Origin: Candidatus Levyibacteriota bacterium
GTDB taxonomy: Bacteria > Patescibacteriota > Microgenomatia > Levybacterales > UBA12049
Assembly: GCA_963790825.1 (NCBI GenBank)
Contig: CAWBPM010000003.1
Span: 125,681-189,680 of the forward strand
Direction of reading: 5' to 3'
Length of the DNA stretch: 64,000 nucleotides
Numbering within the stretch: position 1 is the stretch's first letter; the number at the start of each line of letters is the position of its first letter. Position numbers and translations under genes: made by a program. The notes below the pieces were generated by a model. It did no database searches and had not been told where the DNA came from. It was given only the letters and a program-made list of their open reading frames with translations. This document shows, one piece after another, positions 786 to 42,488 of the stretch.

Positions 786-1913
786 CTAGACAGCAGTAAA
801 TCCTAAAATATCGTAGATTCGTTTATTTTTGGATTTAAGTAATAATTCTAAAGCTTTTGGGATATTCAGATCATCATCCATTATTTGGCTGAATTCTTCT
901 ACATTACCATCTTTGAGATTACCTTTTAAAGTCTCCACTTTATTTTGGGCAGCAATTAAGTCCTCTTCTTTATATTCCCAATTCTCTCTATAATGATGAG
1001 ACAATAAAAGCCAACGAAGCGCGTTCGTGGAATATTTTTGCAGGAGATCGGAAACCATAACTAAATTCCCTTTTGATTTACTCATTTTTTCTCCTTTATA
1101 GGAAACCTGAGCGGTATGAATCCAATACGCAGCAAAGGGAATTTTACCTGTAGCTCCTTCGCTTTGTATAATTTCCGCTTCATGGTGAGGAAAAATCAAG
1201 TCTGTTCCTCCTCCATGAATGTCGATTTGTTCACCAAAAGAATATATACTCATGGCAGAACATTCTATGTGCCATCCCGGTCTGCCTTTAGCAAACGGAC
1301 TATTAAAATAAGGTATGTGTGCCTCCTGCCCCGGTGTGGCAGCTTTCCACAATGTTATATCCAGTGGATTTCTTTTATCGGGATTATCTGTGTCCTCTTC
1401 AAATTCTTTTGCAAGGTTTAGCATTTGATCTTTAGACAACCTGGAAAGTTTGCCGTAGTTTTTATTTTTTGCAGTATCCAGATAGACGCTTCCCAGACTG
1501 GTATAAGCAAAACCGTTATCAATAAGTTTTTGGATTAATTTAATCATGGAAGGAATTTGCTCCGATGCTTTCAGATAGTTGGTAGGTGCAGTCCAATTGA
1601 GAGATTGCATATCCCGGATAAACTTACCCGTCCAGAATTCGGATAATTTTTTCCAGGAGATATTTTGCCGGCGGGCGCGTTCTAAAATATCTTTATCCCT
1701 GTCGTTTATGTCGGTAACATTTTGTGTATAGATAACAGCATATCCTTTAAATTTTAAATACCGTATGAGTACGTCAAAGTTGATATAGGTAAAAGCATGG
1801 CCCAAGTGGGTTGTGTCGTAAGGAGTTATACCGCAAACATAAAGGGAAACCGTTTTAGGCTTTAGGGGTACGAATGTATTTTTTTTCTTTGTGAGAGTAT
1901 TATAAATACGCAT
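786..1913 (-). CDS. Class-I cysteinyl-tRNA ligase family protein lacking the C-terminal anticodon-binding domain (MshC-like cysteine ligase architecture)
   Basis: CGITPYD..HLGHA (HIGH-type motif), GRPGWHIECSAM, GGGTDLIFPHHE and KMSKS at ~aa 277. The protein ends ~35 aa after the DDDLNIPKA helix, so the CysS C-terminal anticodon-binding extension is absent. The GNLVMVSDL context resembles MshC more than CysS, but this is recalled from memory. 1-nt gap to the upstream LmbE gene. Confidence 0.7.
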   Translation of the reverse strand: MRIYNTLTKKKNTFVPLKPKTVSLYVCGITPYDTTHLGHAFTYINFDVLIRYLKFKGYAVIYTQNVTDINDRDKDILERARRQNISWKKLSEFWTGKFIRDMQSLNWTAPTNYLKASEQIPSMIKLIQKLIDNGFAYTSLGSVYLDTAKNKNYGKLSRLSKDQMLNLAKEFEEDTDNPDKRNPLDITLWKAATPGQEAHIPYFNSPFAKGRPGWHIECSAMSIYSFGEQIDIHGGGTDLIFPHHEAEIIQSEGATGKIPFAAYWIHTAQVSYKGEKMSKSKGNLVMVSDLLQKYSTNALRWLLLSHHYRENWEYKEEDLIAAQNKVETLKGNLKDGNVEEFSQIMDDDLNIPKALELLLKSKNKRIYDILGFTAV

Positions 1914-1914
1914 G

Positions 1915-2604
1915 TCAGTAAGGAAGATCTAATTTGATAAAACCCTCTGAGAACTTATAGCCTTTTTTAGCTCCCAATGTTTTAGCTCTTTCTATTACCC
2001 AACCAAGGTTTTCCTTTTTTATCTGGCTTTTATGCGCAAGAAGTGCTTTGCATTTCAGATCAAACGTATCTGAAATATCAACAATTTCATTTACTTTCTC
2101 AAACGAAATTAAATAAACTACCGGTACTTTGTGCGGTTTTAATCCTTCTTTTTCCAGTTCTTTAAAAGTAAGTCTGTCTCTGGCTAGTGGAAAAACAGCA
2201 TCCAGGGCGGCTTGCGCTGCAGCTCTGTGATCGGTGTGATTTATATAGCCCCTTTGTACAGAATAAATAAAAGTCGGGTCCTGGGTTACAACAATGTCAG
2301 GTTTAATTTTTCTAATAACTCTGACGATTTCTTTTTTCAGCTTTATATCTGCAACAAGCTGGGTATCTTTATTTTTTAGGAAAAAAACACCTTTTAATCC
2401 GAGAATTTTAGCGGCTTCTTTTTGTTCTGCTTTCCTTAGACTTACAAGTTTACTTTCAGTCATCTTAGGATCATCCGATCCTTTACCCCCGTCCGTACAG
2501 ATAAGGTAGTAGCACTTTGCACCTTGTTTAATCCATTTGGCAAAAGACCCCGCTACTCCGAAATCTAAATCATCAGGGTGTGCACCAATGCCTAAAATTG
2601 TCAT
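1915..2604 (-). CDS. LmbE/PIG-L family zinc-dependent N-acetylglucosaminyl deacetylase (MshB/BshB-like)
   Basis: GAHPDDLDFG (AHPDD motif), a HTDH motif and ~230 aa. ATG at 2604 is preferred over the GTG at 2640. Operonic with the CysS/MshC-like gene. Confidence 0.7.
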   Translation of the reverse strand: MTILGIGAHPDDLDFGVAGSFAKWIKQGAKCYYLICTDGGKGSDDPKMTESKLVSLRKAEQKEAAKILGLKGVFFLKNKDTQLVADIKLKKEIVRVIRKIKPDIVVTQDPTFIYSVQRGYINHTDHRAAAQAALDAVFPLARDRLTFKELEKEGLKPHKVPVVYLISFEKVNEIVDISDTFDLKCKALLAHKSQIKKENLGWVIERAKTLGAKKGYKFSEGFIKLDLPY

Positions 2605-2645
2605 GCTGATTATTTTAGCATGAATAGTAAATATAGTCACGCTCT

Positions 2646-3722
2646 GTATGCGTCACGCACTTATTGGAATCTTGGCTTGTATAAAGGACATAGGCGACAT
2701 ATATTTAAGCGAAGCATGTGGCCTCTTATAGTTATACCAGTATAAATACTTTGTGAGCTTTTTTGCAAATGCTTCTGAGTCATAGTAAATCTCGTCATTT
2801 CTTAAAATGAATTCCTCCTGGATTGTCCGATTGAATCTCTCAATGTAACTATTAATCTTTGGCATTCTGGGATAGATAAATTGATGTTTAATTTTCTGTT
2901 CAACTATATACTCATGGAATGATTTGAGAAACTCTGATCCATTATCTGTTTGGATTGTATGAATCGGTGTTGGATTATTGCACTGGAACTGCTTAAAAAC
3001 CTCTCTTGCTGTTACTGAGGAGAGATCCGGTACATATACAACTAAGGCAAATTTTGTGTAAATATCAATCACACACATAAACAAATGTTTCTCAAAATTG
3101 ATATAGACAACTACTGAATCCATCTCAATAAATCCAGGAGAAACTACCTTAGGAGACTTTCTCACTCTTAGCTTTTTGAACTTGTTTTTTTGTTTCTGTG
3201 GGTAGACTTTCTTCTCAAATGTTAAGTGACGTCTTTTAAGTACTTTCCCAATAGTACTTTCTGCCAAGGTCTTAATACCCAGCTCTTTGGCATACGCATC
3301 AACAAAGGGCTTGAGCATACTTTTACCAATATTCCCATGCTCATGCCTCATCTCTCTAATGAACTCAATTATTCTCCAGTCTGTCTCCATCTTTCGCACA
3401 TGGAGAGGTCTAGTTCCGTGTGGCACTAAACTGATTGTCCTTTTTCCGTTGTGTTCATAAGCATTTCTCCAGTTGTATAAGCTGCTCTTCTTTATTTTGA
3501 ATGCAGCAAGGGTTGGACGCAGTCCATACTTGTAGTAGTGATTAATCACGTGAAGGCGAAAAGCAGCTACATCGGATACTTCAACTGCTAATGAATTCTG
3601 GAGCATTTTCATCAGTATATGATAGCTCTTTTGTGAGTATTTTGGTCGTAAATGTCTTACTCGTTTAAAATCACTTGGCATAGAATCTTCTTCCTTAAGA
3701 TTCCAATATGTATCGTGACTTA
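2646..3722 (-). mobile_element. IS481-family insertion sequence (copy 1); approximate ends
   Basis: Carries a DDE transposase. Imperfect terminal inverted repeats: left ~2646-2673 (gtcacgcacTTATTGGAATCTT) and right ~3693-3722 (AAGATTCCAATat...cgtgac). A short direct repeat 'tcacgctct' flanks both ends (2638-2646 and 3724-3732) and may be a target-site duplication. Confidence 0.55.
2653..3681 (-). CDS. IS481-family DDE transposase (rve integrase core)
   Basis: 342 aa. N-terminal HTH-like region, then an integrase core with QTDNGSEF and the YNYKRPHASL C-terminal signature typical of IS481/IS3-type transposases. Confidence 0.8.
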   Translation of the reverse strand: MPSDFKRVRHLRPKYSQKSYHILMKMLQNSLAVEVSDVAAFRLHVINHYYKYGLRPTLAAFKIKKSSLYNWRNAYEHNGKRTISLVPHGTRPLHVRKMETDWRIIEFIREMRHEHGNIGKSMLKPFVDAYAKELGIKTLAESTIGKVLKRRHLTFEKKVYPQKQKNKFKKLRVRKSPKVVSPGFIEMDSVVVYINFEKHLFMCVIDIYTKFALVVYVPDLSSVTAREVFKQFQCNNPTPIHTIQTDNGSEFLKSFHEYIVEQKIKHQFIYPRMPKINSYIERFNRTIQEEFILRNDEIYYDSEAFAKKLTKYLYWYNYKRPHASLKYMSPMSFIQAKIPISA

Positions 3723-3786
3723 TTCACGCTCTACTATATAATCAACTCACAAAATATAAAAATGAAAAATTTTATTTTTGCTATAA

Positions 3787-13112: not shown

Positions 13113-14210
13113 CTACGGATTTATAAAATAAATATTACCCCTTACCAAACTGATCAGTTCTTTTGTGTCTGCAAAACGATTGTCACTTTGCATAACGATT
13201 AAGATAAATGTATGATTATCTTCTACTTCCGAAGTTACGAGAACTTGGCCTGCTTCGTCGGTAGTTCCGGTTTTTATACCCGTTATTCCATCAGTTCCCA
13301 GTAGTTTATTTAAGTTTAGCAAACTGAATGATTTTTTGCCGTTAACTGTTGTAATAACTTTCGTTTTTGTACCGACTACCTGGGAAAATGCCTTATTTTT
13401 CATTGCGTATGAGGCAAGCCGTGCCAGATCATAGACCGTCGTGTAATCCCAATCATCATTTAATCCATCCGGATCTGCGAAATGGGTGTTATAAAGATTC
13501 AGCTCTTTTGCTTTCGCATTCATCCGGGCCACAAACGCAGATACCCCTCCCGGATAATTCTCTGCCAACGCGTAAGCCACGTCGTTTCCCGACGGCAGCA
13601 ATAAACCGTATAGCATATCCGGAAAATATAATGCATCGCCCTTTTTCAAACCAACCCGTGAGCCTTCAATAGTATCTGTAAGACAAGTAATAATGGAATC
13701 GTTTTTATAGTATTCAAGGGATATTAATGCTGTCATAATTTTAGTCGTAGATGCCATTGAAAAACGAAGCGTTTTATTTTTTGAGAATAACGTAACGCCT
13801 GACGCGCTTTCAAGAATAATTGCCGCGTTAGCGCTAAGAACAGGAGTACGGATCTGCTTCATTACCGGATAAGGATTAATAATTTGCGCTGATTTTGTAT
13901 TATGAGAAAATTTACTTTGTTTTATATACCGCTCTAAAGAAATACTAATAAAAAAAAGAATTAGAAAAATGCCAAGCAAAATGAGTGGTATTAGGATGAG
14001 TTGTAAATTCTTTTCCTGAGTTAGAAAAAAATTCTTCCCTTGACGTAAATAGGTTCGCAGGTTTTTTTTAGAAGACAGATTAGTCGGCTTTCCACTTGGT
14101 GATTTTTGCAGGGTAGCGGCTTTCCCTGCGAATTTTTCTTTTTTATCTACAGTTTTTTTATCAACTGTTTTTTTCTTTTTTGTCAATTGTTGAGAATCTT
14201 TCATCGACAC
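13113..14210 (-). CDS. D-alanyl-D-alanine carboxypeptidase (S11 family, PBP5/DacA-like)
   Basis: SxxK motif (MASTTKIMTAL), SGN motif (LLPSGNDVAYALAE), KTG-like GIKTGTT. Lys-rich N-terminal region plus TM anchor. Confidence 0.75.
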   Translation of the reverse strand: MSMKDSQQLTKKKKTVDKKTVDKKEKFAGKAATLQKSPSGKPTNLSSKKNLRTYLRQGKNFFLTQEKNLQLILIPLILLGIFLILFFISISLERYIKQSKFSHNTKSAQIINPYPVMKQIRTPVLSANAAIILESASGVTLFSKNKTLRFSMASTTKIMTALISLEYYKNDSIITCLTDTIEGSRVGLKKGDALYFPDMLYGLLLPSGNDVAYALAENYPGGVSAFVARMNAKAKELNLYNTHFADPDGLNDDWDYTTVYDLARLASYAMKNKAFSQVVGTKTKVITTVNGKKSFSLLNLNKLLGTDGITGIKTGTTDEAGQVLVTSEVEDNHTFILIVMQSDNRFADTKELISLVRGNIYFINP

Positions 14211-15537
14211 GCTCCATATCTCGCGGGAAAAGGGATGCTTCGCGAATATTATTTAATTCTAACAGTTTCATGGTTAATCTCTCCAGTCCGAAAGAAAACC
14301 CTCCTTCAGGCGGCATGCCATATTTAAATGCCATAAGATATATTCCAAAATTCGCAGGATTTACTCCTTTTTTCTCCATTGCCGAAATGAGCTGATTGTA
14401 GTCATTTATCCTCTGGCTTCCGCTAAGAATTTCAAGTCCGCGAAATAGTAAGTCATAAGATAGACTATATTCCGGATTTTTCGGATCCGGACACGTATAA
14501 AAGGCTCGTTTTTTCGTTGGATAATGGGTGATTGTGACGAAATCCGATTGGTGTTTTTCTTTCGCCCAAAGATAAATTTCCTTTTCATCTTCAGGGTTTA
14601 AGTCAAGTTCTTTTGCTAAATCTCTCCCCGTTCGTTTGCTGATAATTTCTTGTGCCTGACGGAGTGTAAGACGTGGAATAGAAATCGGTACCAGTGGTTT
14701 ATCTACAGCAAATTTTTCTAAGATATCCGCATGTTTCTCTGAAACATTTCTTATCATATTTGCCCCGACAAATTCCAACGCGTCCAGTAACTCTTCAAAA
14801 TTTTCTATAAATGCAATTTCAACATCCATTTGTGTTGCTTCCGAGATATGCCGCGTTGTTACCGACGGTTCTGCCCGATAGGCTTTCGCTATCGTATAAA
14901 CCCTTTCAAATACTCCTACCATTATTTGCTTATAGAGTTGCGGACTTTGGGTCATAAATGCTTCGTGTCCATAATAATCAAGTTTAAACACTTCTGCGCC
15001 TCCCTCTGTCGCGCCGGATGCAATTGTCGGGACAAAGATTTCTGTGCAGTCAAGAGCGAGTGCTGCTTTGCGAAATTCTTCAGCCAAAGCAGCCTGGATG
15101 GTAAAAATCATTTGTACCCGCGGATGTTTCAGCGTTAACGACCTATGATCCAGAAGTGTCGGTAATTCGAGATTCAATTCTTCTTCTCCCATATCAAAAG
15201 GCAAGGCTTCGGAGACCGCAAGGATTTCAAGTTCGCTTGCTTCGAGTTCCACCGTGCCGCTGGCAATTTTTGGATTTATTAGTTGGTCCGGTCTTTTGTT
15301 CACTTTTCCAGTAATAGCAACCGCATACTCACTGCGAAGTCCGGATGCTGCGGCATGCGCTTTTGCAGATACTTGCGGATTAAAAATAACCTGTAGTAGT
15401 CCCGATCTGTCCCGAAGATCAATGAAAATCAATTTGCCGTGATCACGCCTGGCATGTACCCAGCCTTTCACCATTATTTCTTCACCTGTCCGCCTGGGCG
15501 TTTCTTTGACCAAAATTCTTCGTAATGCTTTTGTCAT
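14161..15537 (-). CDS. aspS: Aspartate--tRNA ligase, class IIb, short archaeal/non-discriminating type
   Basis: N-terminal OB-fold (VKGWVHARRDHGKLIFIDLRDRSGLLQV). Class II motif 3 (GMPPEGGFSFGLERLTM). ~459 aa with no GAD insertion. ATG at 15537 preferred over the longer ORF. Confidence 0.7.
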   Translation of the reverse strand: MTKALRRILVKETPRRTGEEIMVKGWVHARRDHGKLIFIDLRDRSGLLQVIFNPQVSAKAHAAASGLRSEYAVAITGKVNKRPDQLINPKIASGTVELEASELEILAVSEALPFDMGEEELNLELPTLLDHRSLTLKHPRVQMIFTIQAALAEEFRKAALALDCTEIFVPTIASGATEGGAEVFKLDYYGHEAFMTQSPQLYKQIMVGVFERVYTIAKAYRAEPSVTTRHISEATQMDVEIAFIENFEELLDALEFVGANMIRNVSEKHADILEKFAVDKPLVPISIPRLTLRQAQEIISKRTGRDLAKELDLNPEDEKEIYLWAKEKHQSDFVTITHYPTKKRAFYTCPDPKNPEYSLSYDLLFRGLEILSGSQRINDYNQLISAMEKKGVNPANFGIYLMAFKYGMPPEGGFSFGLERLTMKLLELNNIREASLFPRDMERVDERFSTIDKKEKNS

Positions 15538-15620
15538 AATTATAAATCGCCTGTTCCATATCATACTAGGAATTCGTTTACTTGACAAGCACAAATTTAT
15601 AGGATTATAATCGTTTTGTG

Positions 15621-15656
15621 CTATGAATTTTAAGTATCGTTTTTATCAGATCTCAC
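15621..15656 (+). promoter_or_regulatory. Near-consensus sigma70-type promoter (TTGACA-N18-TATAAT), followed by a ~100-nt structured leader
   Basis: ttgacaagcacaaatttataggattataat. Downstream, three mutually exclusive hairpins (atctcac/gtgagat; gagatttgg/ccaaatctc; atctcc/ggagat+T9) end in a U-tract just before the ATG at 15757. Confidence 0.45.
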
Positions 15657-15756
15657 ACATTAATCTCCTTGTCCTTATGGGATGAGTGAGATTTGGCGTT
15701 TAGTGTACATACCAAATCTCCTCATGATGCGGGAGATTTTTTTTTGGGGTAAAAAT

Positions 15757-17139
15757 ATGGCAGTAGTAGAATTAGAAAAACTAACAATTCGAGAAGTAGT
15801 ACCTAAAAAAAACGGTAATTTTTATGTCCTTAAACAAGACGGCGCGCTTAGGTTAAAGGATAATGTAACATTTGGTGGCCTTGGATCTACTTCTTCTGAT
15901 GGCTGGCGAATAGCGACAGACACTGAGAAGGCTAAGGTACACAATATGCGTACACAAATTATTTCGATATTAGGAATTGAAAGAATATCACAAATTCCGG
16001 GTCTCATTAATAATCCTGGAGCTAGAAAACAAGCTAGTGACACTGCATATGAATTAATTGGCGGTATGTATGGTATGGAACAAAAACCAGAAAGTGAAAC
16101 AGAATTAGAGCGTAAACAACGACGGGAAAGAATTGCTGTTCGCGTCAAAGGATATGGAGATATAGCAAACAGTGTTATTACCCATTTAGCAGAGGAACAG
16201 TTACCCAGGTCTCATGCTGATCTTACGATGGTAAACGAAATTAAAAATGCCAGCGATCCTGTAGAATTACTTCTTTTGGCTCACGATAATCGTTATCATA
16301 GACGGGTCCGGTTCGAAGCTGCACGAAAACTTCAGTTAATGGCTTTGGCAGCTGCTCTCGATCAAAGAGAACAAGAATCCGGTGTCGAAGAAAAAGGAAA
16401 GCAACTTGATATCTTTCTTGACGAACATGTATATAGTCAGGCCCGAAAACGGGGAGAAACAATACTTGCTTATTTATACAGTACACATGATCCGGAAACA
16501 TTTGATGCTACTTCGGTTAGAGTTTTGCATAAAACCGAAGCCGACAGACAAAGATTATTACTTAAGCCATACGAGAAAATAACTCCGGTTCAACGCAGAA
16601 CAGTCCAGTCAAATGGTCAGGAAATACCGGTATATGTAAACACCCGTCAAAAAGATCCGGTCGCAAGTGTATTAAAATTGCTGCGTAAAGGACATGAGAA
16701 TCCTGCAGTAGCAGTAGATGATAGCTTAGGACTTATGGCTGTACTTGAAACAGAAAACGATCTGGATAATTTCAGAACTCATTTGGTAAAAGGTGCAACA
16801 GAAGCCGGATCCATGTTACAAGAGGAAGAGACTCAAAACACGCTTCATGGAGAGAAACACGTGCCTTCCAGCCCCGGTAGTTCTCCTGATATACGGATGT
16901 ATAAAAGTCATATGAGAATTAACGGAATGAGATTCGAATTCCAGGGATATACTATTTTCTCATATTTAGATAGTTTATATCGTAGAGATAGTGGTCACTA
17001 CGAATATGACGTTAAACGGTTATTTAATAGCGGTGTGGTATCATTATTATTCCCGGAGACCGTATATGGTTACAACGAGGAAGACATGAGAGAATCGGCA
17101 ATTAAAAAAGTAAGAAGTGAGGTAGAATCGCAATATTAA
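15757..17139 (+). CDS. Hypothetical 461-aa protein with HEAT-like repeat and weak RelA/SpoT-like nucleotidyltransferase motifs
   Basis: PBS-lyase/HEAT-like PVELLLLAHDNRYHRRVRFEAARKL. C-terminal half has R-x-K..S.L.KL.RKG, DDSLGLMAVL...ENDLD and YKSHMRI...FEFQGYT...H.YEY, loosely like RelA/SpoT synthetase blocks (RxKSxxSIxxKIxRK / DIAGIRII..DD / GYRSLH / EIQIRT..HW.YK). Divergent; needs profile search. Confidence 0.4.
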   Translation: MAVVELEKLTIREVVPKKNGNFYVLKQDGALRLKDNVTFGGLGSTSSDGWRIATDTEKAKVHNMRTQIISILGIERISQIPGLINNPGARKQASDTAYELIGGMYGMEQKPESETELERKQRRERIAVRVKGYGDIANSVITHLAEEQLPRSHADLTMVNEIKNASDPVELLLLAHDNRYHRRVRFEAARKLQLMALAAALDQREQESGVEEKGKQLDIFLDEHVYSQARKRGETILAYLYSTHDPETFDATSVRVLHKTEADRQRLLLKPYEKITPVQRRTVQSNGQEIPVYVNTRQKDPVASVLKLLRKGHENPAVAVDDSLGLMAVLETENDLDNFRTHLVKGATEAGSMLQEEETQNTLHGEKHVPSSPGSSPDIRMYKSHMRINGMRFEFQGYTIFSYLDSLYRRDSGHYEYDVKRLFNSGVVSLLFPETVYGYNEEDMRESAIKKVRSEVESQY

Positions 17140-17141
17140 GA

Positions 17142-18809
17142 TTAGGATGATTTTAAATCTTTAATCTTCAGCTGCAGTTTGGTATTTCCGTTCCATTTGT
17201 TTTCATCAATTGTATAGGCAACACTTAGCTTATCGCCAACCCCTATGTCTTTAGCTAATTCTCCCATCCCGAAGGCAATTGCTTCAAAGATAGGAGAATT
17301 TTCTTGGTGGAGCATTAACTTTAAGTGCTTGCCCTCTCTACCCAAAATACGCAGATCCGAAACTTCCACATCGCGGCTGACAAATACCGGTTCGGGATTA
17401 CCCATACCGAAAGGCGAAAGCTTTTGGATTTCTTCATATAACTTAGGGCTGATATTATTTAATGACAATTCGCAATCTATTTTAATTCGCCGCGTTAGTA
17501 AATCATCGGTTAATATCTTTTCGCTCATTTCGCTGAGTGCTTTTTCAAGTTTTTTCAGTTTGGTTGTTTCTATCGTAAACCCTGCCGCCATTGGATGGCC
17601 GCCCAAATTTACAAAAAATTCCTGGTTTTTTCTTAGAAATTCAATGATATTAAATCCTACAACTGAACGAACTGATGCTTTTGAATATTCCTCTCCTATT
17701 GATAAGACTATTGCCGGACGATAAAATTCCTCAACCAGTCTTCCGGCAATCAAGCCAATTATTCCCTGCTGATACGTCTCATGTCCTAAAATTAATAATT
17801 TTTTAATAGGTTTCGACCGGATAGTCATACTGGCGTGAGTTACGGATTCCTTCATCATTTCTTGCCGCTCTCTATTCGTTCGTCCGAGTTTCACTGCCAG
17901 GCTTCTAGCTCGATTCGCATCTTTTGTGCAAAGTAACCGTAGGCTATCCATCGCCGACTCAAGCCGACCAGCAGCATTTAATCTGGGCGCTATGATGTGC
18001 CCGACTTCATAAACACCAAGGTTTTCCTTTCCACATGCTGCTTCCTCAAAAAGAGCCAGGAGACCGGGACGTGTGGTTTCACGTAACTTTTTTAGACCCT
18101 CCTTAGCTATTGCCCGATTTGCACCGGTGAGTGGAACCAAATCGGCGATTGTGCCCAGCGTCGCAAGTTCTAAATGAGTATTTTTCTCCTTCCCGGTATT
18201 TCTTTCTTTTTTAATTTCATTCGCCAAAACATAAGCAATACCCGCACCGCATAACTTCGTTGTATGGACAATGGCAAACGCGGGAGGCAGTTTTGTATTT
18301 TCCGGCAAATGATGGTCCGTAATAATTACATCTATTCCCTGGCTGTTCGCATATTTAACCGCTTCATTTGCCACAATGCCATTATCAACTGTTATTATCA
18401 ATTTCAAATTTTTACTGACAAGCTTCGCGTTTTCAATCCCTATCTTTGACAGACCATATCCTTCATCCATGCGATGGGGAATATACGGCATAATTTCAGC
18501 ACCTATCGCCCTAAGTGTTTCCCATAAAATTGCGGATGCGGTTATACCGTCAACGTCATAATCGCCAAAAACAATAATGTGCTCTTTTTCACTAATTGCT
18601 TTTTCAATCCGTTTGAGTGCTTTTGTCAATTGTAATTTATTAAGACCTACATTTTTTGGAGTAATATTTTCAAGTACCGGATTAAGAAACTCTTTGATTT
18701 CCTTTTTTGTTTTTATATCACGATTATGTAAAAGTATTTCTGTCAGTTCCTGGAATTTTGAATTTTGAATTTTGAATTTTGAATTATTTATTATTTCCCA
18801 TTTTTTCAT
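17142..18809 (-). CDS. recJ: Single-stranded-DNA-specific exonuclease RecJ
   Basis: DHH family motifs (VFGDYDVDGITASAIL; ITDHH; GGHPMAAG) and DHHA1 domain. N-terminal NSKFKIQNSKFQ is encoded by a heptanucleotide tandem repeat. Confidence 0.85.
   Translation of the reverse strand: MKKWEIINNSKFKIQNSKFQELTEILLHNRDIKTKKEIKEFLNPVLENITPKNVGLNKLQLTKALKRIEKAISEKEHIIVFGDYDVDGITASAILWETLRAIGAEIMPYIPHRMDEGYGLSKIGIENAKLVSKNLKLIITVDNGIVANEAVKYANSQGIDVIITDHHLPENTKLPPAFAIVHTTKLCGAGIAYVLANEIKKERNTGKEKNTHLELATLGTIADLVPLTGANRAIAKEGLKKLRETTRPGLLALFEEAACGKENLGVYEVGHIIAPRLNAAGRLESAMDSLRLLCTKDANRARSLAVKLGRTNRERQEMMKESVTHASMTIRSKPIKKLLILGHETYQQGIIGLIAGRLVEEFYRPAIVLSIGEEYSKASVRSVVGFNIIEFLRKNQEFFVNLGGHPMAAGFTIETTKLKKLEKALSEMSEKILTDDLLTRRIKIDCELSLNNISPKLYEEIQKLSPFGMGNPEPVFVSRDVEVSDLRILGREGKHLKLMLHQENSPIFEAIAFGMGELAKDIGVGDKLSVAYTIDENKWNGNTKLQLKIKDLKSS
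18752..18786. repeat. Heptanucleotide tandem repeat (GAATTTT)x5 in the first codons of recJ
   Basis: gaattttgaattttgaattttgaattttgaatta seen directly. A related 'caattttgaattttgcattttg' occurs at 37306-37327 inside sufC. Confidence 0.8.
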
Positions 18810-18905
18810 GTATTTTCGTATTATAGAACAATATATAGCTTTATCAACACGTCAAAAAGGCGCAAGCTCGATATTTGCTTTTTTCTTTTTGCTATACTAT
18901 AGAGT

Positions 18906-20321
18906 ATGGTAGAGCGTATTCCTTCTTATATTATTGACACATATAAAAAAATCTCATCGGCAGGATTTAGTGTATATTTGATTGGGGGATCGGTGCGCAG
19001 CTTACTTTTAAAGCAACCAATTGTAGATTGGGACATGACTACGAACGCTACCCCCGAACAAATCCTTCATCTTTTTCCTGACGGATTTTATGATAATCAG
19101 TTCGGCACTGTCGGCTTGCCTATCGAAACCTTGGCGAAGGCAGGGATTCCGCTTAAAGATCACTTGCAGCCCGAACAAAAAGGGGTTTTGGAAATAACTA
19201 CATTTCGAACCGAACAGGCGTACAAAGATAACCGCCATCCGGATAAAGTTACATGGGGAGAAACACTGGAAGAAGACCTAAAACGTCGTGATTTTACTAT
19301 CAATGCAATAGCACTAAAATTACACTACGAAGGCGACCCGATAACCAGCGAGGTAATTGATTTACATAATGGTCAGGAAGATCTTAAAAATCGACTTATC
19401 CGTACCGTAGGGGATCCTAATCAACGATTTAAAGAAGACGCCCTTCGGCTCATGCGTGCAATTCGTTTTGCAACCCAATTAAGATTCCGGATTGAAGAAA
19501 AAACCTTACTTGCAATTCAAACAGACGCTTCGCTGTTACAAAATATATCTGCTGAACGAATTCGTGATGAACTGCTTAAAATTCTTGCAAGCGAATATTC
19601 TTACGAGGGCGTATTGCTTTTACGTAATACCGGACTTCTGCAATATATTCTTCCCGAGCTTCTCAAAGGAATAGGTGTTTCAATGGTACGCCCAGGCAGA
19701 CACCATACAACAGATGTGTTCGACCATAATTTATTAGCTTTAAAATATTGTCCGTCAAATGATCGGATTGTCCGCTTCGCTACACTTATTCATGATGTCG
19801 GTAAGCCATATGTAGCAGGAAAAGATGAAGAGGGATTGGTCATTTTTCATAACCATGAAATTATGGGGGCAAAAATTGCAAGTGAGATCTGTAGTAGACT
19901 GCGATTTTCGAAAAAAGATAGGGATCGAATCGTTAATTTAATTCGCTGGCATATGTTCACGGTTGATGAACATATTACGGATTCGGCGATTCGCCGCTTT
20001 ATCAGGCGGGTGGGCGTAGTAAATGTAAAAGACATATTGGATCTGAGAATCGGCGACCGACTCGGCAGTGGCACGCAAACTGCCGAGTCCTGGCGGCTTA
20101 GAGAGTTTAAAAAAAGAGTTGAGGAACAGCTCTCCCCGATGCCTTTTTCCGTCAGTGATTTGGCAATTGACGGAAATGATGTAATGAAAGAATTGCAGCT
20201 TAAACCCGGACCGAAAATTGGCGAAATCCTGCAAAAACTTTTTGAGGAAGTGGATGAGGACTTAAGTAAGAATAATAAGGACTATTTACTGCAAAGGATA
20301 AAAGAAATTACTAATAAATGA
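18906..20321 (+). CDS. cca: CCA-adding tRNA nucleotidyltransferase with HD domain
   Basis: Pol-beta NTase head (LIGGSVRSLLLKQPIVDWDMTT), RxxRxxRF-like motif, and HD domain (HHTTDVFDHN...IHDVGK). Confidence 0.8.
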   Translation: MVERIPSYIIDTYKKISSAGFSVYLIGGSVRSLLLKQPIVDWDMTTNATPEQILHLFPDGFYDNQFGTVGLPIETLAKAGIPLKDHLQPEQKGVLEITTFRTEQAYKDNRHPDKVTWGETLEEDLKRRDFTINAIALKLHYEGDPITSEVIDLHNGQEDLKNRLIRTVGDPNQRFKEDALRLMRAIRFATQLRFRIEEKTLLAIQTDASLLQNISAERIRDELLKILASEYSYEGVLLLRNTGLLQYILPELLKGIGVSMVRPGRHHTTDVFDHNLLALKYCPSNDRIVRFATLIHDVGKPYVAGKDEEGLVIFHNHEIMGAKIASEICSRLRFSKKDRDRIVNLIRWHMFTVDEHITDSAIRRFIRRVGVVNVKDILDLRIGDRLGSGTQTAESWRLREFKKRVEEQLSPMPFSVSDLAIDGNDVMKELQLKPGPKIGEILQKLFEEVDEDLSKNNKDYLLQRIKEITNK

Positions 20322-21753
20322 CTTTATATAAACGTGCATCTCTAATTTGCTTCACAAGAGAAATTTTTTTAGCATTTTCCATATTACTGACAGCCTGGGA
20401 AAAATTTTGATTAGACTCAAGTAATTGAGTCACCCATTGATTGGGATGTAAATCAACAAGTATATATGTTGGCTTACCGGCAAAATCCAACCACCAACAC
20501 TCCATTTTAGCACACTGCGTATTTGGAACTTTGTGTTTTCGTGGATAAAGCAAATAAACCTCTTTTCGATGACTAATATGAGGAACTAAATTTTGTGCAG
20601 ACGCAACACTTGCATTTTTTGGCAAGAATGCAAATAATGCGTTGTCGTTATCCATCCATGATTCATGTTGCCAATAAACTTTTTTTGCTAATTTATTTAA
20701 AGGAAAGTGAAAATAAAATTGCAATCCTATCGATATAATAAATAAGATGATGACAATAATTTCTACGTTAATTTTTCGTTTTTTCAAAAAAAATAAAACA
20801 TCAAATGTTCCAAGAATTAGAAAAAATGCAAGAATTGCCCGATGATGTAAAAATGGTCCTTGCATCCAACTGAAACTTCCTCCTAATATGAAATATTGGA
20901 ATAAATCACCAAACTCCGCTAACATTGCGCCTGGAGAAAAAATCGGAAGAAAAGAAAACCAAGACAGCGAGTATAGCCATACTTGCCGTCTTTCATTTGT
21001 CGCAAAATAACCTTTTGCAATTTCAATAGGATTATGCGGGATATTTGGAAAATATTCATAACCCACCGGATAGAAATACCCGATAATTTTTATACAAATA
21101 AAACTGGCAATAATCCCACCAATAATAAATAGTATTGCACTTCGTCTATATTTTTTGTAAAACAAATAGACACATCCCAGGCAGGCGAATGCTATTCCCA
21201 TGTTTTCCTGGGTTAATAACGTTAGCAGCAAAAAAGTGATGAATAATTTCTTTTTCTTTGCCTCAAAAAAATATGCTGTCCACACAAGCAAACCAACACC
21301 AATAATAATTGGGTGAAAATCAAAAAATACACCGTACTGAATACCAAAAAACAATGAATAAATAATACTTAATAATAAAGAACTAAAAGCCGAAAGATTT
21401 CGAAGTTTTGCTAAAAGATAAATCGGGATTGTGGATACCGCTATCCAAACTACTTGAAAAATGAGTAATGTCCTGACATCATTCCATATCCAAAAAAGTG
21501 GAGCTAGCAACGGCAAGGTTAAGGTTAAATGATCACCAAGAATAAATCGTTCTTTGATCGTGTTATAGGGAAATAAGAAATGCGCATACTGCCATACTGC
21601 CTGATCAAATATTCCCAGGTCAAATGCGCCAGATTGAAACGTATTATGCCGGATAACTGAAAGTAATGAGTATAAAATTGCTAAAATGACTATCCAAATA
21701 AGCAGTAGAAAGAATGAATACTTTTGAAAAAAAAGGACGACTTGCCGTTTCAC
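20311..21753 (-). CDS. DUF2079 family polytopic membrane protein
   Basis: RHNTFQSGAFDLGIFDQAVWQ signature near the N-terminus and ~12 TM helices. Confidence 0.55.
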   Translation of the reverse strand: MKRQVVLFFQKYSFFLLLIWIVILAILYSLLSVIRHNTFQSGAFDLGIFDQAVWQYAHFLFPYNTIKERFILGDHLTLTLPLLAPLFWIWNDVRTLLIFQVVWIAVSTIPIYLLAKLRNLSAFSSLLLSIIYSLFFGIQYGVFFDFHPIIIGVGLLVWTAYFFEAKKKKLFITFLLLTLLTQENMGIAFACLGCVYLFYKKYRRSAILFIIGGIIASFICIKIIGYFYPVGYEYFPNIPHNPIEIAKGYFATNERRQVWLYSLSWFSFLPIFSPGAMLAEFGDLFQYFILGGSFSWMQGPFLHHRAILAFFLILGTFDVLFFLKKRKINVEIIVIILFIISIGLQFYFHFPLNKLAKKVYWQHESWMDNDNALFAFLPKNASVASAQNLVPHISHRKEVYLLYPRKHKVPNTQCAKMECWWLDFAGKPTYILVDLHPNQWVTQLLESNQNFSQAVSNMENAKKISLVKQIRDARLYKVIY

Positions 21754-21813
21754 ACCATCAATTATAGCAAGAAGCTGATCAATTATATAAATATCATACC
21801 TTTAATTTTTTTA

Positions 21814-23391
21814 TTATCGAAATATCAAGTTTTGATAATAATTCGGATCTGCCGGTTGTTCATTCGCCGGTATCTGTAATTTTTCTACTGTTATTCCACT
21901 GCTAAACGTTTTTGCAAGAATGATTTTACCGCTTGTTCTTACCACATTTTTTTTCCAAAACATATACGCACCATTATCACTGTCGGAATGCGGATACATG
22001 ATAAGATATGTCGTGGGATGTTTTAAATTTGAAGGAGTAATCAGATGGTCTGTATTACTTAACCACCAAAGTAAATAATCCATGTTGTAGGTAAGAATAC
22101 CTGTTGTATACACAAAGTATCCATATGGTCGGTTTTTCGTATCAGAAATAACCCAGTTGGCAACTGCGACTTGATTTTTATATGATCCATCACTCGATGA
22201 TGGATATTGTGGTGCGTTTATATAATTATTCCTTACCCACATTAGGGCAGGAAAAATGACAAACAATAAGAAAATGCTTACTAGTATTTTATAATATGCT
22301 CGTTTTTTCCAAATGTATTGTATTGATAAAGCCAGAACAAAAATCGCAAAGATAGAGATTGGTAAAAGATAATGTGGCCATAACGGTAATGGGTAAAAAA
22401 TATAAATAGCAAAAATCACTATCGGCGAAAGTAAAATAAATACGTATTCTTTTTCTTCCTTTTTTATCTTTTTTTTAGGTATTATGCTTTTTAGAACAAG
22501 AAATATGCCCAGAGTAATAATTGCGGTCAGCAGCCATGAGGTTAACGGGTCACTATTAAATAAAGGAGTAAATAAACTGTTCCATAAATTCGTCATTCTG
22601 TCCTGAAAACGAAAACCGATATTTGCATACTCTTCATATCCCGGTAACGGTTTCACAGGATTAGTAAATAATTTTAATATTGATAAGGTCATAAGGAATT
22701 GATGACGCAGATCGAAAAGAATGAATGTTGATACTGCGAGAATAAATGCTATGATTCCAAGTAAAAAGTTTTTCATTGTCGGCAATTTTCTGCTTATCAG
22801 TAATGCGACTGCAGTCAGGGGGATTAATAAAATTGCAAAGGCTGACTCAAATTGAAACCCCAATCCAATAAAAAAGATTGTTGGAATAATATATTTATCT
22901 TTTCCCCGCATAAATTCAATTATTGAATAAAGATAGAGAAGAACAATTATTGGCAGAACTTGGGCATTTGAGGTAAACGGGACGGTTTCAATCAGTGTTT
23001 GAGAGATAGTAAGGAACAAAGCGAAGAGTAATCCCATCCATTTGTTATATAATTTCCAGCCAACTAAAAAACCAATAAGGATGATTGCAAGATTGACAAT
23101 TTCAAAAAGTGGAACGAGCGTCCAATATGGATTTCCCTTGGCAATCAGGAAAAATGGGGTAATCATATAGATCCATAATGCTCCATGAAAAAGGCCACCG
23201 AGTCCGGTTCTCGCGCCGATAAGCGTCAATTTGTGATCGACGACGATACTTTTTGCAAGCAGCATATCGCGAGATTGATCAAGAAGATAATAAAAATCTC
23301 CAGAAAAAAACATTTTTGAGCGAAGCAGGAATCCGAAGATCAATAAAAGAATAAACAAAGCAGGAACTAGTATTTTTTTATATAAGCTCAC
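21814..23391 (-). CDS. GT-C fold membrane glycosyltransferase-like protein (ArnT/PMT-like)
   Basis: 525 aa. ~11 TM helices with DxxRD-type loop (DQSRDM) near the first TM pair, and a C-terminal soluble domain. Confidence 0.4.
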   Translation of the reverse strand: MSLYKKILVPALFILLLIFGFLLRSKMFFSGDFYYLLDQSRDMLLAKSIVVDHKLTLIGARTGLGGLFHGALWIYMITPFFLIAKGNPYWTLVPLFEIVNLAIILIGFLVGWKLYNKWMGLLFALFLTISQTLIETVPFTSNAQVLPIIVLLYLYSIIEFMRGKDKYIIPTIFFIGLGFQFESAFAILLIPLTAVALLISRKLPTMKNFLLGIIAFILAVSTFILFDLRHQFLMTLSILKLFTNPVKPLPGYEEYANIGFRFQDRMTNLWNSLFTPLFNSDPLTSWLLTAIITLGIFLVLKSIIPKKKIKKEEKEYVFILLSPIVIFAIYIFYPLPLWPHYLLPISIFAIFVLALSIQYIWKKRAYYKILVSIFLLFVIFPALMWVRNNYINAPQYPSSSDGSYKNQVAVANWVISDTKNRPYGYFVYTTGILTYNMDYLLWWLSNTDHLITPSNLKHPTTYLIMYPHSDSDNGAYMFWKKNVVRTSGKIILAKTFSSGITVEKLQIPANEQPADPNYYQNLIFR

Positions 23392-23453
23392 AGTGAAATA
23401 ATATCAAAATTATAACATATCAATTACCGGCTAAATATAGAGACTAGAAGTAA

Positions 23454-23729
23454 TTATTTTCGGCGGGACCTAGCGTTTTCGTAGTAATATCCAAAAGATC
23501 CTAAACGGTAATTTGTTAACCATACTTCACGGGCTAACCAATTAACAGAATATCCTATTATAGGGACAGATGATAGTTTGCCAAATTCGTGTTTGAAACT
23601 TTCCGTTACAGACGGGCGACACTCTCGTTGTGCTTCAATACTTAATTTTCTCGCCTCATTTAAATCAAATACAACCTCCCCGAATTTTTTTACTCCTGCA
23701 ATCGGATGTAGCTCAATGTTTCTTGCCAT
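23454..23729 (-). CDS. Hypothetical small protein
   Basis: 91-aa ORF with no recognisable motif. Confidence 0.25.
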   Translation of the reverse strand: MARNIELHPIAGVKKFGEVVFDLNEARKLSIEAQRECRPSVTESFKHEFGKLSSVPIIGYSVNWLAREVWLTNYRLGSFGYYYENARSRRK

Positions 23730-23802
23730 AGGCAGAATTATACCTCAGTTTTTTTATTATATCAACTTTTGTATTGCCCATAATATATGTTATAATTACC
23801 TT

Positions 23803-24255
23803 ATGACAAAAGCACAACTTCAGGAAGAGCTGAAACAATCCATGCTTGCCAGAAACAGTGAGAAAACCTCAACGCTTCGTATGCTTCTCTCGGCGATAGG
23901 CTATCTTGAAATTGAAAAAGGAGGCGCGGGATATACTGCATCAGAAGAGGATGTGCAAACTGCAATCCAAAAACAAGTTAAGCAGCATAGAGATTCTATC
24001 GAGCAATATGAGACCGCAGGACGATCGGAGCTTGCAGATAAAGAGAAAAAGGAACTCTTACTGCTTCAAGCATATTTACCTGCCCAAATGAGCGAGGAAG
24101 AGATTAAAACCTTGGTACAAAAAGTAATTTCGGAAACAGGCGCCGCTTCGGTCCAAGACCTTGGAAAAGTTATGGGAATTCTCATGCCGCAAACGAAAGG
24201 AAAGGCTGACGGCGGATTGGTTAATAAGATTGTACGCGAAATCCTCCCCTCTTAA
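23803..24255 (+). CDS. GatB/YqeY domain protein
   Basis: 150 aa. LKQSMLARNSEKTSTLRMLLSAIGYLEIEKG...LGKVMGILMPQTKGKADGGLVNKIVREIL matches YqeY. ATG at 23803. Confidence 0.75.
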   Translation: MTKAQLQEELKQSMLARNSEKTSTLRMLLSAIGYLEIEKGGAGYTASEEDVQTAIQKQVKQHRDSIEQYETAGRSELADKEKKELLLLQAYLPAQMSEEEIKTLVQKVISETGAASVQDLGKVMGILMPQTKGKADGGLVNKIVREILPS

Positions 24256-24258
24256 CGT

Positions 24259-25715: not shown

Positions 25716-25717
25716 AA

Positions 25718-34708: not shown

Positions 34709-34722
34709 ATTAATTCATTATA

Positions 34723-42479: not shown

Positions 42480-42488
42480 AAATTTATT

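What the first reader, a model, noticed from the sequence alone, without database searches (positions are those of the whole stretch)
786..3722. LmbE deacetylase + anticodon-domain-less CysS/MshC-like ligase operon, with an IS481 element directly upstream
The two genes are separated by 1 nt. Together they reproduce the MshB/MshC step pair of mycothiol biosynthesis (de-N-acetylation of a GlcNAc conjugate, then ATP-dependent cysteine ligation). The ligase has the full CysS catalytic core (HIGH-type motif, GWHIECSAM, KMSKS) but ends ~35 aa after the DDDLN helix, so it has no anticodon-binding domain. That is the MshC architecture, not that of a tRNA synthetase. If this is the organism's only CysS-family gene, it is either an unusually minimal CysRS or a thiol/glycoside-cysteine conjugating enzyme in a lineage not known to make mycothiol. 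No MshA (GT4) or MshD gene is adjacent, so any pathway would be non-canonical. The IS481 copy sits where the operon's promoter should be and is transcribed in the same direction, so expression may be IS-driven.
Basis: partly seen in the sequence, partly recalled or inferred. Interest (0 to 1): 0.7.

Follow-up and report, generated by a model that had tools for sequence, protein, structure and literature searches.

The report
Conserved deacetylase plus short cysteine-ligase pair
A sugar deacetylase gene and a shortened cysteine-activating enzyme form a gene pair that recurs across a group of tiny uncultured bacteria, sometimes beside two more mycothiol-type genes, which hints that these bacteria make an undescribed protective thiol with the enzyme now annotated as their cysteine-tRNA synthetase.

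Summary
On the minus strand lie an IS481-like element (2646-3723, 9-bp target duplication), an LmbE/PIG-L deacetylase (2604-1915) and, 1 nt later, a 375-aa CysRS-family ligase (1913-786) with no anticodon-binding domain. The source is a Microgenomates (Patescibacteria) genome.

My first five look-ups suggested the pair was not conserved. A wider sample reversed that. An LmbE gene is the immediate upstream neighbour in 33 of 64 usable non-redundant relatives: 19 co-directional and 14 divergent, the divergent ones using a different LmbE paralogue. None of 80 other CysRS/MshC loci has an adjacent LmbE. In six loci (at least four lineages) an MshA-like GT4 and a sugar-phosphate phosphatase flank the ligase.

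The ligase falls in a bipartition of anticodon-domain-less enzymes that contains true MshC (NJ bootstrap 100/100). It fails the MshC model (334 vs 485 bits), passes the cysS model (393 vs 340), and keeps CysRS residues that MshC has lost.

Best reading (0.5): it acts as the cysteine ligase of a mycothiol-like pathway, possibly while also serving as the CysRS. I could not test whether a second CysRS exists. IS-driven expression is not shown.

The parts
786..1913 (-). Anticodon-domain-less CysRS/MshC-type cysteine ligase, 375 aa. Motifs: HLGH, GWHIECSAM, HHEAE, KMSKS.
   Evidence: cysS TIGR00435 scores 393 bits (cutoff 340). MshC TIGR03447 scores 334 bits (cutoff 485).
1915..2604 (-). LmbE/PIG-L family Zn deacetylase, 229 aa from ATG 2604 (the ORF is open back to GTG 2640). 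Carries the AHPDD and HxDH motifs. Its stop codon is 1 nt before the ligase ATG.
   Evidence: PF02585 scores 96 bits. BshB1 scores 103 bits (cutoff 182). The best solved relative is diacetylchitobiose deacetylase (127 bits).
2612..2640 (-). Promoter-like site (GTGACT, 17 nt, TAAAAT with TG before it) between the IS end and the LmbE ATG. The -35 hexamer lies in the duplicated target site. Low confidence.
   Evidence: The number of such sites in the region equals the shuffle expectation.
2637..2645 (.). Target-site duplication copy 1 (TCACGCTCT).
2646..3723 (-). IS481-like insertion sequence, 1078 bp, with imperfect terminal inverted repeats at 2652-2673 and 3697-3719.
2653..3681 (-). DDE (rve) transposase, 342 aa.
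   Evidence: NF033577 IS481 scores 155 bits (cutoff 224).
3724..3732 (.). Target-site duplication copy 2 (TCACGCTCT).

Best explanation
LmbE and the ligase form a translationally coupled two-gene module that is kept together in many Microgenomates. The ligase belongs to a distinct group of CysRS relatives without an anticodon-binding domain, the same group that contains mycothiol ligase MshC.

Inferred mechanism. The ligase activates cysteine to Cys-AMP on its zinc site. This rests on intact HIGH and KMSKS motifs and all four CysRS zinc ligands. It then transfers the cysteine to the free amine of a glucosamine glycoside that the LmbE enzyme has just produced by de-N-acetylation, which is the MshB-to-MshC logic. 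The GlcNAc glycoside would be made by an MshA-like GT4 acting on a phosphorylated acceptor, followed by a sugar-phosphate phosphatase. Those two genes sit beside the ligase in related genomes but not in this window. The product would be a mycothiol- or bacillithiol-like Cys-GlcN-X compound whose aglycone is unknown.

I lean towards the same enzyme also charging tRNA-Cys (dual use), but that is not shown.

The IS481-like element is a recent insertion 42 nt upstream of the module. Its effect on expression is unknown.
For: Gene order:
- Of 70 non-redundant loci of this ligase clade, 64 have enough upstream DNA to judge. An LmbE gene is at position -1 in 33 of them. Nineteen are co-directional, with an LmbE 62-82% identical to the window's and gaps mostly 6 nt or less. 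Fourteen are divergent, with a paralogue 27-36% identical.
- Every LmbE gene found in these loci is at position -1, while the flanking genes vary.
- The three states (co-directional, divergent, none) are interspersed on the ligase tree.
- Two LmbE orthologues that I chose without regard to the ligase are also directly upstream of one.
- Control: none of 80 other CysRS/MshC loci has an adjacent LmbE.
- In six non-redundant loci (at least four lineages, spanning both Patescibacteria ligase types) a GT4 lies next to the ligase. Its best NCBIfam family by far is MshA (302-317 bits over the full length; the next family scores about 119 bits). A sugar-phosphate phosphatase accompanies it: His_Phos_1 in five loci and a non-homologous HAD-IIB enzyme in one.

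Phylogeny:
- All 37 short forms, including three true MshC, separate from 66 long CysRS with bootstrap 100/100. The split still has 59/60 support after I removed the motif regions used to retrieve the sequences.

Sequence:
- Like MshC, the protein lacks the anticodon-binding domain.
- In the CP-domain loop it has lost the G166 and R168 residues that are conserved in long CysRS. PMC5389517 says this loop reads the 1:72 base pair of tRNA-Cys.
- That loop carries a conserved acidic insertion 4 aa longer than the E. coli CysRS loop (EFEEDxDNPDK, against ERGGDPDRPGK in MshC).
Against: - The protein fails the curated MshC model (334 bits, cutoff 485) and passes the cysS model (393 bits, cutoff 340).
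- It keeps CysRS-invariant residues H224, E238 (the fourth zinc ligand), Q241 and W254, all of which true MshC has lost (PMC9736012).
- About half of the relatives have no LmbE next to the ligase. Some of those sit among translation genes such as the CCA-adding enzyme and GluRS.
- No canonical long CysRS from Patescibacteria turned up in any search. These roughly 1-Mb genomes may therefore depend on this enzyme for Cys-tRNA.
- The GT4 is nearly as similar to a sucrose-phosphate synthase structure (198 bits) as to the MshA structure (206 bits). The closest solved relative of the LmbE is a chitobiose deacetylase.
- No MshD-like or thiol-reductase gene was seen near the ligase.
- The window itself holds no MshA-like GT4.
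- There is no biochemical evidence.
Confidence: 0.5

Rival explanations
1. Plain housekeeping enzyme. The protein is simply the minimal, anticodon-domain-less CysRS of Patescibacteria and only charges tRNA-Cys, recognising the acceptor end. LmbE, the GT4 and the phosphatase are amino-sugar or cell-envelope genes that travel with it for co-expression or by historical accident.
For: - It scores above the trusted cutoff of cysS TIGR00435, and PGAP names it cysteine--tRNA ligase.
- All four CysRS zinc ligands and other CysRS-invariant residues are kept.
- It is present on every near-complete genome contig sampled (0.77-1.15 Mb).
- Both short ligase types are confined to Patescibacteria and were never seen sharing a contig length.
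- There is a precedent: CysRS*, which lacks the anticodon-binding domain, charges a tRNA in vivo (PMC5389517).
- Thirty-one of 64 usable loci lack an adjacent LmbE.
Against: - An adjacency rate of 52%, in two different arrangements with two LmbE paralogues, plus recurrent MshA-like GT4 and two non-homologous phosphatases, is hard to ascribe to chance. The rate in 80 control loci is zero.
- The loop that reads the tRNA acceptor stem is replaced by a conserved acidic MshC-type insertion.
Confidence: 0.2
2. Cysteine salvage. The LmbE protein acts as an Mca- or Bca-type amidase, or as a deacetylase, that releases cysteine from scavenged thiol conjugates or N-acetylated compounds. It is co-expressed with the CysRS that consumes that cysteine. 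These bacteria are thought to scavenge most building blocks from their surroundings.
For: - The LmbE family includes the amidases Mca and BshB2/Bca.
- The best NCBIfam hits of the two paralogues are BshB1 (window type) and BshB2, MshB and Mca (divergent type), all below their cutoffs.
- LmbE and the ligase are tightly coupled, with gaps of 0-6 nt.
- In L175 an MFS transporter overlaps the ligase in the same operon, next to a NagB-type gene.
Against: - It does not explain a biosynthetic-type MshA-like GT4 with a sugar-phosphate phosphatase next to the ligase.
- It does not explain the MshC-like changes at the acceptor site of the ligase.
Confidence: 0.15
3. Dedicated MshC analogue. The short enzyme does not charge tRNA at all, and a separate CysRS, or the SepRS/SepCysS route, elsewhere in the genome serves translation.
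For: - It groups with MshC, lacks the anticodon-binding domain and has lost the 1:72-reading loop.
- MshC and CysRS cannot substitute for each other in mycobacteria (PMC4721953).
- Some Parcubacteria carry SepRS (PMC8762117).
Against: - No long CysRS from Patescibacteria was seen among the best-scoring long relatives. Eight of the 20 clusters I checked carried a name, and all eight were archaea, Planctomycetota, Actinomycetota or an unclassified 'bacterium'.
- The ligase is retained in many genomes where no LmbE or GT4 lies beside it.
- The enzyme keeps CysRS-specific residues.
Confidence: 0.1

Closest known systems
MshC, the mycothiol cysteine ligase (M. smegmatis; PDB 3C8Z, 8HFM; TIGR03447)
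   Same: - Class I CysRS-type catalytic core with HLGH and KMSKS.
- No anticodon-binding domain, and a similar length (375 vs 412 aa).
- The same lengthened CP-domain loop.
- The same side of the 100%-supported tree split.
- The AF2 model superposes at TM 0.91.
- It sits beside an LmbE deacetylase and, in relatives, an MshA-like GT4.
   Different: - It scores 334 bits against a cutoff of 485.
- It keeps H224, E238, Q241 and W254, which MshC replaces. MshC has only three protein zinc ligands.
- It forms its own clade rather than falling inside the MshC clade.
- The host is a Patescibacteria bacterium, and the acceptor is unknown.
Canonical bacterial CysRS (E. coli; PDB 1LI5, 1U0B; TIGR00435)
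   Same: - It passes the model cutoff (393 vs 340 bits).
- It is 36-40% identical over the catalytic, CP and SC-fold regions.
- It has all four zinc ligands (C27, C218, H243, E247).
   Different: - It has only the first helices of the helical bundle and no C-terminal anticodon-binding domain.
- The KIIK lysine K73 and the G166/R168 loop are lost.
- It is separated from 66 long CysRS by a 100% bootstrap split.
CysRS* of Desulfobacterales (PMC5389517)
   Same: A CysRS paralogue without the anticodon-binding domain and with a changed CP1 loop. It shows that such enzymes can still charge a tRNA.
   Different: CysRS* is a second copy dedicated to selC* tRNA-Cys and is linked to selB*. The protein here is linked to LmbE and GT4 genes, and no tRNA-Cys gene lies nearby.
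MshB, BshB and diacetylchitobiose deacetylase (LmbE/PIG-L family, PF02585)
   Same: Zn-dependent GlcNAc de-N-acetylase fold with the AHPDD and HxDH motifs. It sits immediately before a cysteine ligase, as in the MshB-to-MshC step order.
   Different: It scores below the cutoffs of BshB1, BshB2, MshB and Mca. Its closest solved relative is the archaeal chitobiose deacetylase.
MshA, the D-inositol-3-phosphate GlcNAc transferase (TIGR03449; PDB 3C48), seen in related loci only
   Same: It is the best family match over the full length (302-317 bits). It is paired with a phosphatase, as expected for a phosphorylated acceptor.
   Different: It is below the cutoff of 462 bits. It is almost as similar to a sucrose-phosphate synthase structure. 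It is absent from this window.
IS481 family insertion sequences
   Same: A single DDE (rve) transposase, terminal inverted repeats, a short target duplication, and a size of about 1.05 kb.
   Different: The transposase scores 155 bits against a cutoff of 224. It is a divergent member.

Membership tests
CysRS (cysteine--tRNA ligase, TIGR00435) | Curated HMM score at or above the cutoff | tested here: met
   393 bits against 340, but only model positions 1-324 of 466 are matched.
CysRS (cysteine--tRNA ligase, TIGR00435) | HIGH and KMSKS motifs and the four zinc ligands (E. coli C28, C209, H234, E238) | tested here: met
   HLGH, KMSKS, C27, C218, H243, E247.
CysRS (cysteine--tRNA ligase, TIGR00435) | Helical-bundle (DALR_2) plus C-terminal anticodon-binding domain | tested here: not met
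   The protein ends at about E. coli residue 375. Pfam gives no DALR_2 hit. TM to the tRNA-bound CysRS, normalised by target length, is 0.74.
CysRS (cysteine--tRNA ligase, TIGR00435) | CP-domain loop that reads the first base pair of tRNA-Cys (G166 and R168 conserved in 94-95% of long forms) | tested here: not met
   The loop is replaced by an acidic insertion shared with MshC. The role of the loop is taken from PMC5389517.
CysRS (cysteine--tRNA ligase, TIGR00435) | Groups with bona fide CysRS in a phylogeny | tested here: not met
   The short forms separate from 66 long CysRS at 100/100, and at 59/60 after removing the retrieval motifs. NJ method only.
CysRS (cysteine--tRNA ligase, TIGR00435) | Aminoacylates tRNA-Cys, and is the sole CysRS of the genome | not testable with these tools
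   Only 64 kb of the genome is readable. There is no second cysS in it and no tRNA.
MshC (TIGR03447) | Curated HMM score at or above the cutoff | tested here: not met
   334 bits against 485. True MshC from Nonomuraea and Nanopelagicales score 601-615 bits.
MshC (TIGR03447) | CysRS core without the anticodon-binding domain, with the lengthened CP loop | tested here: met
MshC (TIGR03447) | Three-ligand zinc site and the MshC-specific replacements (H224Q, E238G/S, Q241H, W254Y) | tested here: not met
   The window protein keeps the CysRS residues. The MshC ligands C43, C231 and H256 are taken from PMC9736012.
MshC (TIGR03447) | Genomic association with other mycothiol-type steps (GT4, phosphatase, LmbE deacetylase) | tested here: met
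   LmbE is adjacent in 33 of 64 relatives. An MshA-like GT4 plus a phosphatase are adjacent in 6 loci. All of these partners score below their own family cutoffs.
MshC (TIGR03447) | Ligates cysteine to GlcN-Ins | not testable with these tools
   Needs an enzyme assay.
LmbE / PIG-L deacetylases (PF02585) | Pfam score at or above the gathering cutoff, and the metal-binding motifs | tested here: met
   96 bits against 28. AHPDD and HTDH are present.
BshB1 / BshB2 / MshB / Mca (equivalog models) | Score at or above the equivalog cutoff | tested here: not met
   BshB1 103 bits (cutoff 182), BshB2 69 (195), Mca 53 (277), MshB 37 (224).
IS481 family | Transposase model NF033577 at or above the cutoff | tested here: not met
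   155 bits against 224. It is still the best-scoring IS family.
IS481 family | DDE rve transposase flanked by inverted repeats and a target-site duplication | tested here: met
   rve and rve_3 domains, inverted repeats at 2652-2673 and 3697-3719, and the 9-bp duplication TCACGCTCT.

The most novel reading that the evidence does not exclude
One anticodon-domain-less enzyme is both the only cysteinyl-tRNA synthetase of these roughly 1-Mb genomes and the cysteine ligase of a previously unknown Cys-GlcN-X thiol pathway (MshA-like GT4, phosphatase, LmbE, ligase). It would be a living intermediate between CysRS and MshC, and it would show that candidate-phyla-radiation bacteria make their own mycothiol- or bacillithiol-like redox buffer.
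Probability: 0.25. Interest if true: 0.9.

Novelty: new variant of a known kind. Interest (0 to 1): 0.72.

Why it matters
No low-molecular-weight thiol is known for Patescibacteria. In the literature held here I found no paper that links them to mycothiol- or bacillithiol-type synthesis, and one study explicitly zeroes mycothiol gene hits outside Actinomycetota.

A conserved LmbE-ligase module, with MshA-like and phosphatase genes beside it, gives a concrete four-gene pathway that can be tested.

It also bears on two open questions:
- How was MshC derived from CysRS? This clade looks intermediate between the two.
- How do bacteria whose only visible 'CysRS' lacks both the anticodon-binding domain and the acceptor-stem-reading loop charge tRNA-Cys accurately?

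There is a practical side as well. One orthologous group is currently named CysRS by PGAP and either CysRS or MshC by IMG. cysS (TIGR00435), to my recollection and not checked here, is also used as a single-copy phylogenetic marker.

Tried and rejected
1. Five neighbourhood look-ups of relatives (P0015, P0062, P0089, P0006, P0008) showed no LmbE, and I provisionally concluded that the pair was not conserved. Matching contig lengths between the ligase and LmbE hit lists, followed by a clade-specific metagenome scan, overturned that.

It was useless for synteny but useful as the tree set and as a negative control.

3. Looking for a second cysS:
   - tblastn of the window found none.
   - The hit lists of the two short ligase types share no contig lengths.
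   - Of 20 best-scoring long CysRS clusters, 8 carried names and none was Patescibacteria.
   This evidence is too weak to settle the point.

4. tRNA scans of the window and of 60 related loci found no tRNA-Cys near any ligase.

5. Fold comparison does not separate CysRS from MshC (TM 0.90 vs 0.91).

6. The promoter scan around the IS gave hit counts at chance level, so it says nothing about IS-driven transcription.

7. Other recurrent neighbour clusters (RNaseH-like DUF458, a metallopeptidase, a GDSL lipase, membrane proteins, enolase) have no evident link to the pathway.

8. The window has no MshA-like GT4 or matching phosphatase by tblastn. Pfam scans of 25 other window ORFs showed no inositol-phosphate synthase.

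9. Literature searches for a short CysRS, or for mycothiol or bacillithiol, in CPR/Patescibacteria found nothing relevant.


Full report
**What is there.**
- The window is low-GC (about 36-40%).
- Three co-directional minus-strand ORFs fill 786-3681: a 342-aa rve transposase (3681..2653), an LmbE/PIG-L protein (ORF 2640..1915) and a 375-aa CysRS-family protein (1913..786).
- Pfam and NCBIfam confirm the families. The ligase hits tRNA-synt_1e at 356 bits and the LmbE protein hits PIG-L at 96 bits. The best IS family for the transposase is IS481, at 155 bits, below its cutoff of 224.
- LmbE probably starts at ATG 2604, giving 229 aa. That is the length of its orthologues and of the gene called on an identical Logan contig.
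- Its TGA stop (1917-1915) is followed by one base and then the ligase ATG.
- The IS is a real insertion. Imperfect inverted repeats lie at 2652-2673 and 3697-3719, and a 9-bp direct repeat, TCACGCTCT, at 2637-2645 and 3724-3732. The element is therefore 2646-3723 and ends 42 nt before the LmbE ATG.
- A short-read assembly of the same organism breaks inside the inverted repeat.

**The ligase lacks the anticodon-binding domain.**
- It aligns with E. coli CysRS residues 2-360 of 461, then ends. It covers only positions 1-324 of 466 in the cysS model.
- A confident AF2 model (pLDDT 90.9) superposes equally well on MshC (TM 0.91) and on tRNA-bound CysRS (TM 0.90). Normalised by target length, the fit is 0.83 to MshC and 0.74 to CysRS, because CysRS has the extra domain.
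- The 120 closest database relatives are all 363-412 aa long. They come from Patescibacteria/Microgenomates (Collier-, Davies-, Levybacteria). PGAP names them cysteine--tRNA ligase, while IMG names some of them MshC.

**Where it sits in the family.**
- I aligned 103 sequences: 20 Microgenomates proteins, 80 CysRS/MshC genes from diverse genomes, and the aligned parts of three solved structures.
- In an NJ tree on 308 columns, all 37 short forms separate from 66 long CysRS with bootstrap 100/100. The short forms are the Microgenomates clade, a second Patescibacteria type represented by L002, forms from Chloroflexota, Acidobacteriota, Acidimicrobiia and Bifidobacteriaceae, and three true MshC.
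- The Microgenomates clade itself has 100% support. Microgenomates plus L002 has 98%, and MshC plus the Acidimicrobiia type has 88%.
- After I removed the two motif regions that had been used to retrieve the sequences, the main split still had 59/60 support.
- Only true MshC pass the MshC model (601-615 bits). All other short forms fail it (334-420 bits) but pass the cysS model (344-449 bits).
- At positions that are nearly invariant in long CysRS, the window clade keeps H224, E238 (the fourth zinc ligand), Q241 and W254. MshC has replaced all four (MshC zinc ligands from PMC9736012).
- Like every short form, however, it has lost K73, G166 and R168. Where G166 and R168 would lie it carries a conserved acidic insertion, EFEEDxDNPDK, against ERGGDPDRPGK in MshC.
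- That CP-domain loop is reported to read the first base pair of tRNA-Cys (PMC5389517).
- By sequence, then, the protein is intermediate. Its amino-acid site is CysRS-like. Its acceptor side resembles MshC: no anticodon-binding domain and the MshC-type CP loop.

**Is the LmbE neighbour conserved?**
- My first five look-ups said no.
- The LmbE homologue search then showed orthologues at 60-82% identity whose longest-contig lengths coincided with those of ligase hits. Several of these contigs were only 2-7 kb long.
- Look-ups confirmed adjacency in L089 (1-nt gap) and L090.
- A metagenome scan with a clade-specific ligase fragment gave 80 more loci. After removing redundancy at 97% identity, 70 loci remain, and 64 have enough upstream DNA to judge.
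- An LmbE gene is the immediate upstream neighbour in 33 of those 64 (52%).
- Nineteen are co-directional, with the window-type LmbE and gaps mostly 6 nt or less.
- Fourteen are divergent, with a second LmbE paralogue that is 27-36% identical. Its best NCBIfam hits are BshB2 and MshB, both below cutoff.
- Every LmbE gene found in these loci is at position -1. The genes beyond the pair vary, and the three states are interspersed on the ligase tree.
- Two LmbE orthologues picked without regard to the ligase are also directly upstream of one.
- As a control, none of the 80 other CysRS/MshC loci has an adjacent LmbE.

**More pathway-like neighbours.**
- In five non-redundant window-type loci (three lineages: L113/L136/L145, L119 and L084), the ligase is flanked by a GT4 and a His_Phos_1 phosphatase.
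- The GT4's best NCBIfam family is MshA, at about 317 bits over the full length. The next family scores about 119 bits and BshA scores 94 bits. The MshA cutoff is 462 bits.
- In L113 and L145 the order is phosphatase, LmbE, ligase, phosphatase, GT4.
- In a locus of the second Patescibacteria ligase type (L171), an orthologous GT4 (61-66% identical; MshA 302 bits) lies divergently upstream. A non-homologous HAD-IIB sugar-phosphate phosphatase lies directly downstream of the ligase.
- A GT4 acting on a phosphorylated acceptor, a phosphatase, an LmbE deacetylase and a CysRS-like ligase are the first four steps of mycothiol synthesis (pathway as in PMC9736012).
- Two caveats apply. The GT4 is almost as similar to a sucrose-phosphate synthase structure (198 bits) as to C. 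glutamicum MshA (206 bits). The window LmbE is closest to archaeal diacetylchitobiose deacetylase.
- The window itself contains no MshA-like GT4 or matching phosphatase.

**What I conclude.**
- The recurrence of the gene order shows that the pair is under selection to stay together.
- The most economical mechanism is that LmbE frees the amine of a GlcNAc glycoside and the ligase, having made Cys-AMP, acylates that amine. This is inference, not demonstration.
- I could not determine whether the enzyme also charges tRNA-Cys.
- Points in favour of tRNA charging: it passes the cysS model, it keeps CysRS-specific residues, and it is present on all near-complete genome contigs sampled. About half the loci lack an adjacent LmbE. 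No canonical CysRS from Patescibacteria appeared among the top-scoring long relatives whose organisms are named. An enzyme without the anticodon-binding domain, CysRS*, is known to charge a tRNA (PMC5389517).
- Points against: both known tRNA-reading modules are missing or altered, and no tRNA-Cys gene lies near any ligase.
- I put 0.5 on participation in a Cys-aminosugar pathway, with or without tRNA charging.
- Among the rivals, I put 0.2 on a plain minimal CysRS and 0.15 on a cysteine-salvage role for LmbE feeding a CysRS. I list a dedicated non-tRNA ligase with a separate CysRS at 0.1; it is a special case of the pathway reading rather than a separate alternative.

**The IS.**
- It is intact, is flanked by a target duplication and points the same way as the operon.
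- The 42 nt between its end and the LmbE ATG still contain a promoter-like GTGACT-17-TAAAAT with TG before the -10. Its -35 hexamer lies in the duplicated target.
- The scan finds such sites at chance frequency.
- IS-driven expression is possible, but nothing here supports it.

**Novelty.**
- I found no paper in the held library that describes a short CysRS clade in Patescibacteria or any mycothiol- or bacillithiol-type pathway there.
- The components belong to known families, so this is a new variant of a known kind rather than something categorically new.

Noticed in passing
window 13113-28942; L082: This block holds an S11 peptidase, a class II Asp/Lys/Asn-type synthetase, the CCA-adding enzyme, DUF2079, an ORF in the SecF position (24807-25715, not scanned), SecD and DUF3048. 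Its order resembles that of a Collierbacteria locus in which the short ligase sits between the CCA-adding enzyme and SecDF. In this genome the ligase is instead about 17 kb away, next to LmbE. The ligase or its surroundings have been rearranged between close relatives.
   Followed up: partly
window 53205-54218 (-): A second rve/HTH transposase, only 26% identical to the one at 2653-3681. It is a different IS-like element in the same window.
   Followed up: partly
L122, L140, L153, L158: In four relatives the divergent LmbE type 2 gene is followed on its own strand by a class I IleRS/ValRS-like gene. LmbE is therefore sandwiched between two class I synthetase genes. I have no explanation for this.
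   Followed up: no
L175 5001-8872: PIG-L, the ligase and an MFS transporter overlap as one operon. They lie next to a NagB-type glucosamine-6-phosphate deaminase gene, a ProRS and a Glu/Gln-type synthetase.
   Followed up: no
L084, L117, L126, L130, L147, L156, L163, L164 and others: A tRNA-Lys(ttt)/tRNA-Glu(ttc) gene pair recurs within a few kb of the ligase in many relatives. No tRNA-Cys gene is ever nearby.
   Followed up: no
L002; proteins P0241-P0360: A second short ligase type, also without the anticodon-binding domain, is about 49% identical to the window's and 365-441 aa long. Some members give a weak DALR_2 hit. It is widespread in Levy-, Roizman- and Parcubacteria and is also named cysteine--tRNA ligase. 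It shares no contig lengths with the window-type hit list.
   Followed up: partly
L003, L005, L006, L008, L011, L012, L014, L025, L031, L042, L061, L062: Short CysRS-like genes (370-424 aa) occur in Chloroflexota, Acidobacteriota, Acidimicrobiia and Bifidobacteriaceae. The eight I scored against NCBIfam fail the MshC model but pass the cysS model; the other four were not scored. Their function, and whether a long CysRS coexists with them, is unknown.
   Followed up: partly
window 33473-36735; 39226-51627: SUF iron-sulfur genes (SufS, SufBD), and a nucleotide-sugar and GT2 glycosyltransferase island. No GT4 or inositol-phosphate synthase was seen among the ORFs I scanned.
   Followed up: partly
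L001 6837-9700 (same organism, beyond the window start): MsrB, MsrA and a DsbD/thioredoxin-like fusion lie about 5-8 kb downstream of the ligase. MsrA also abuts the ligase in L173/L174. This may be a thiol-redox context or coincidence.
   Followed up: no
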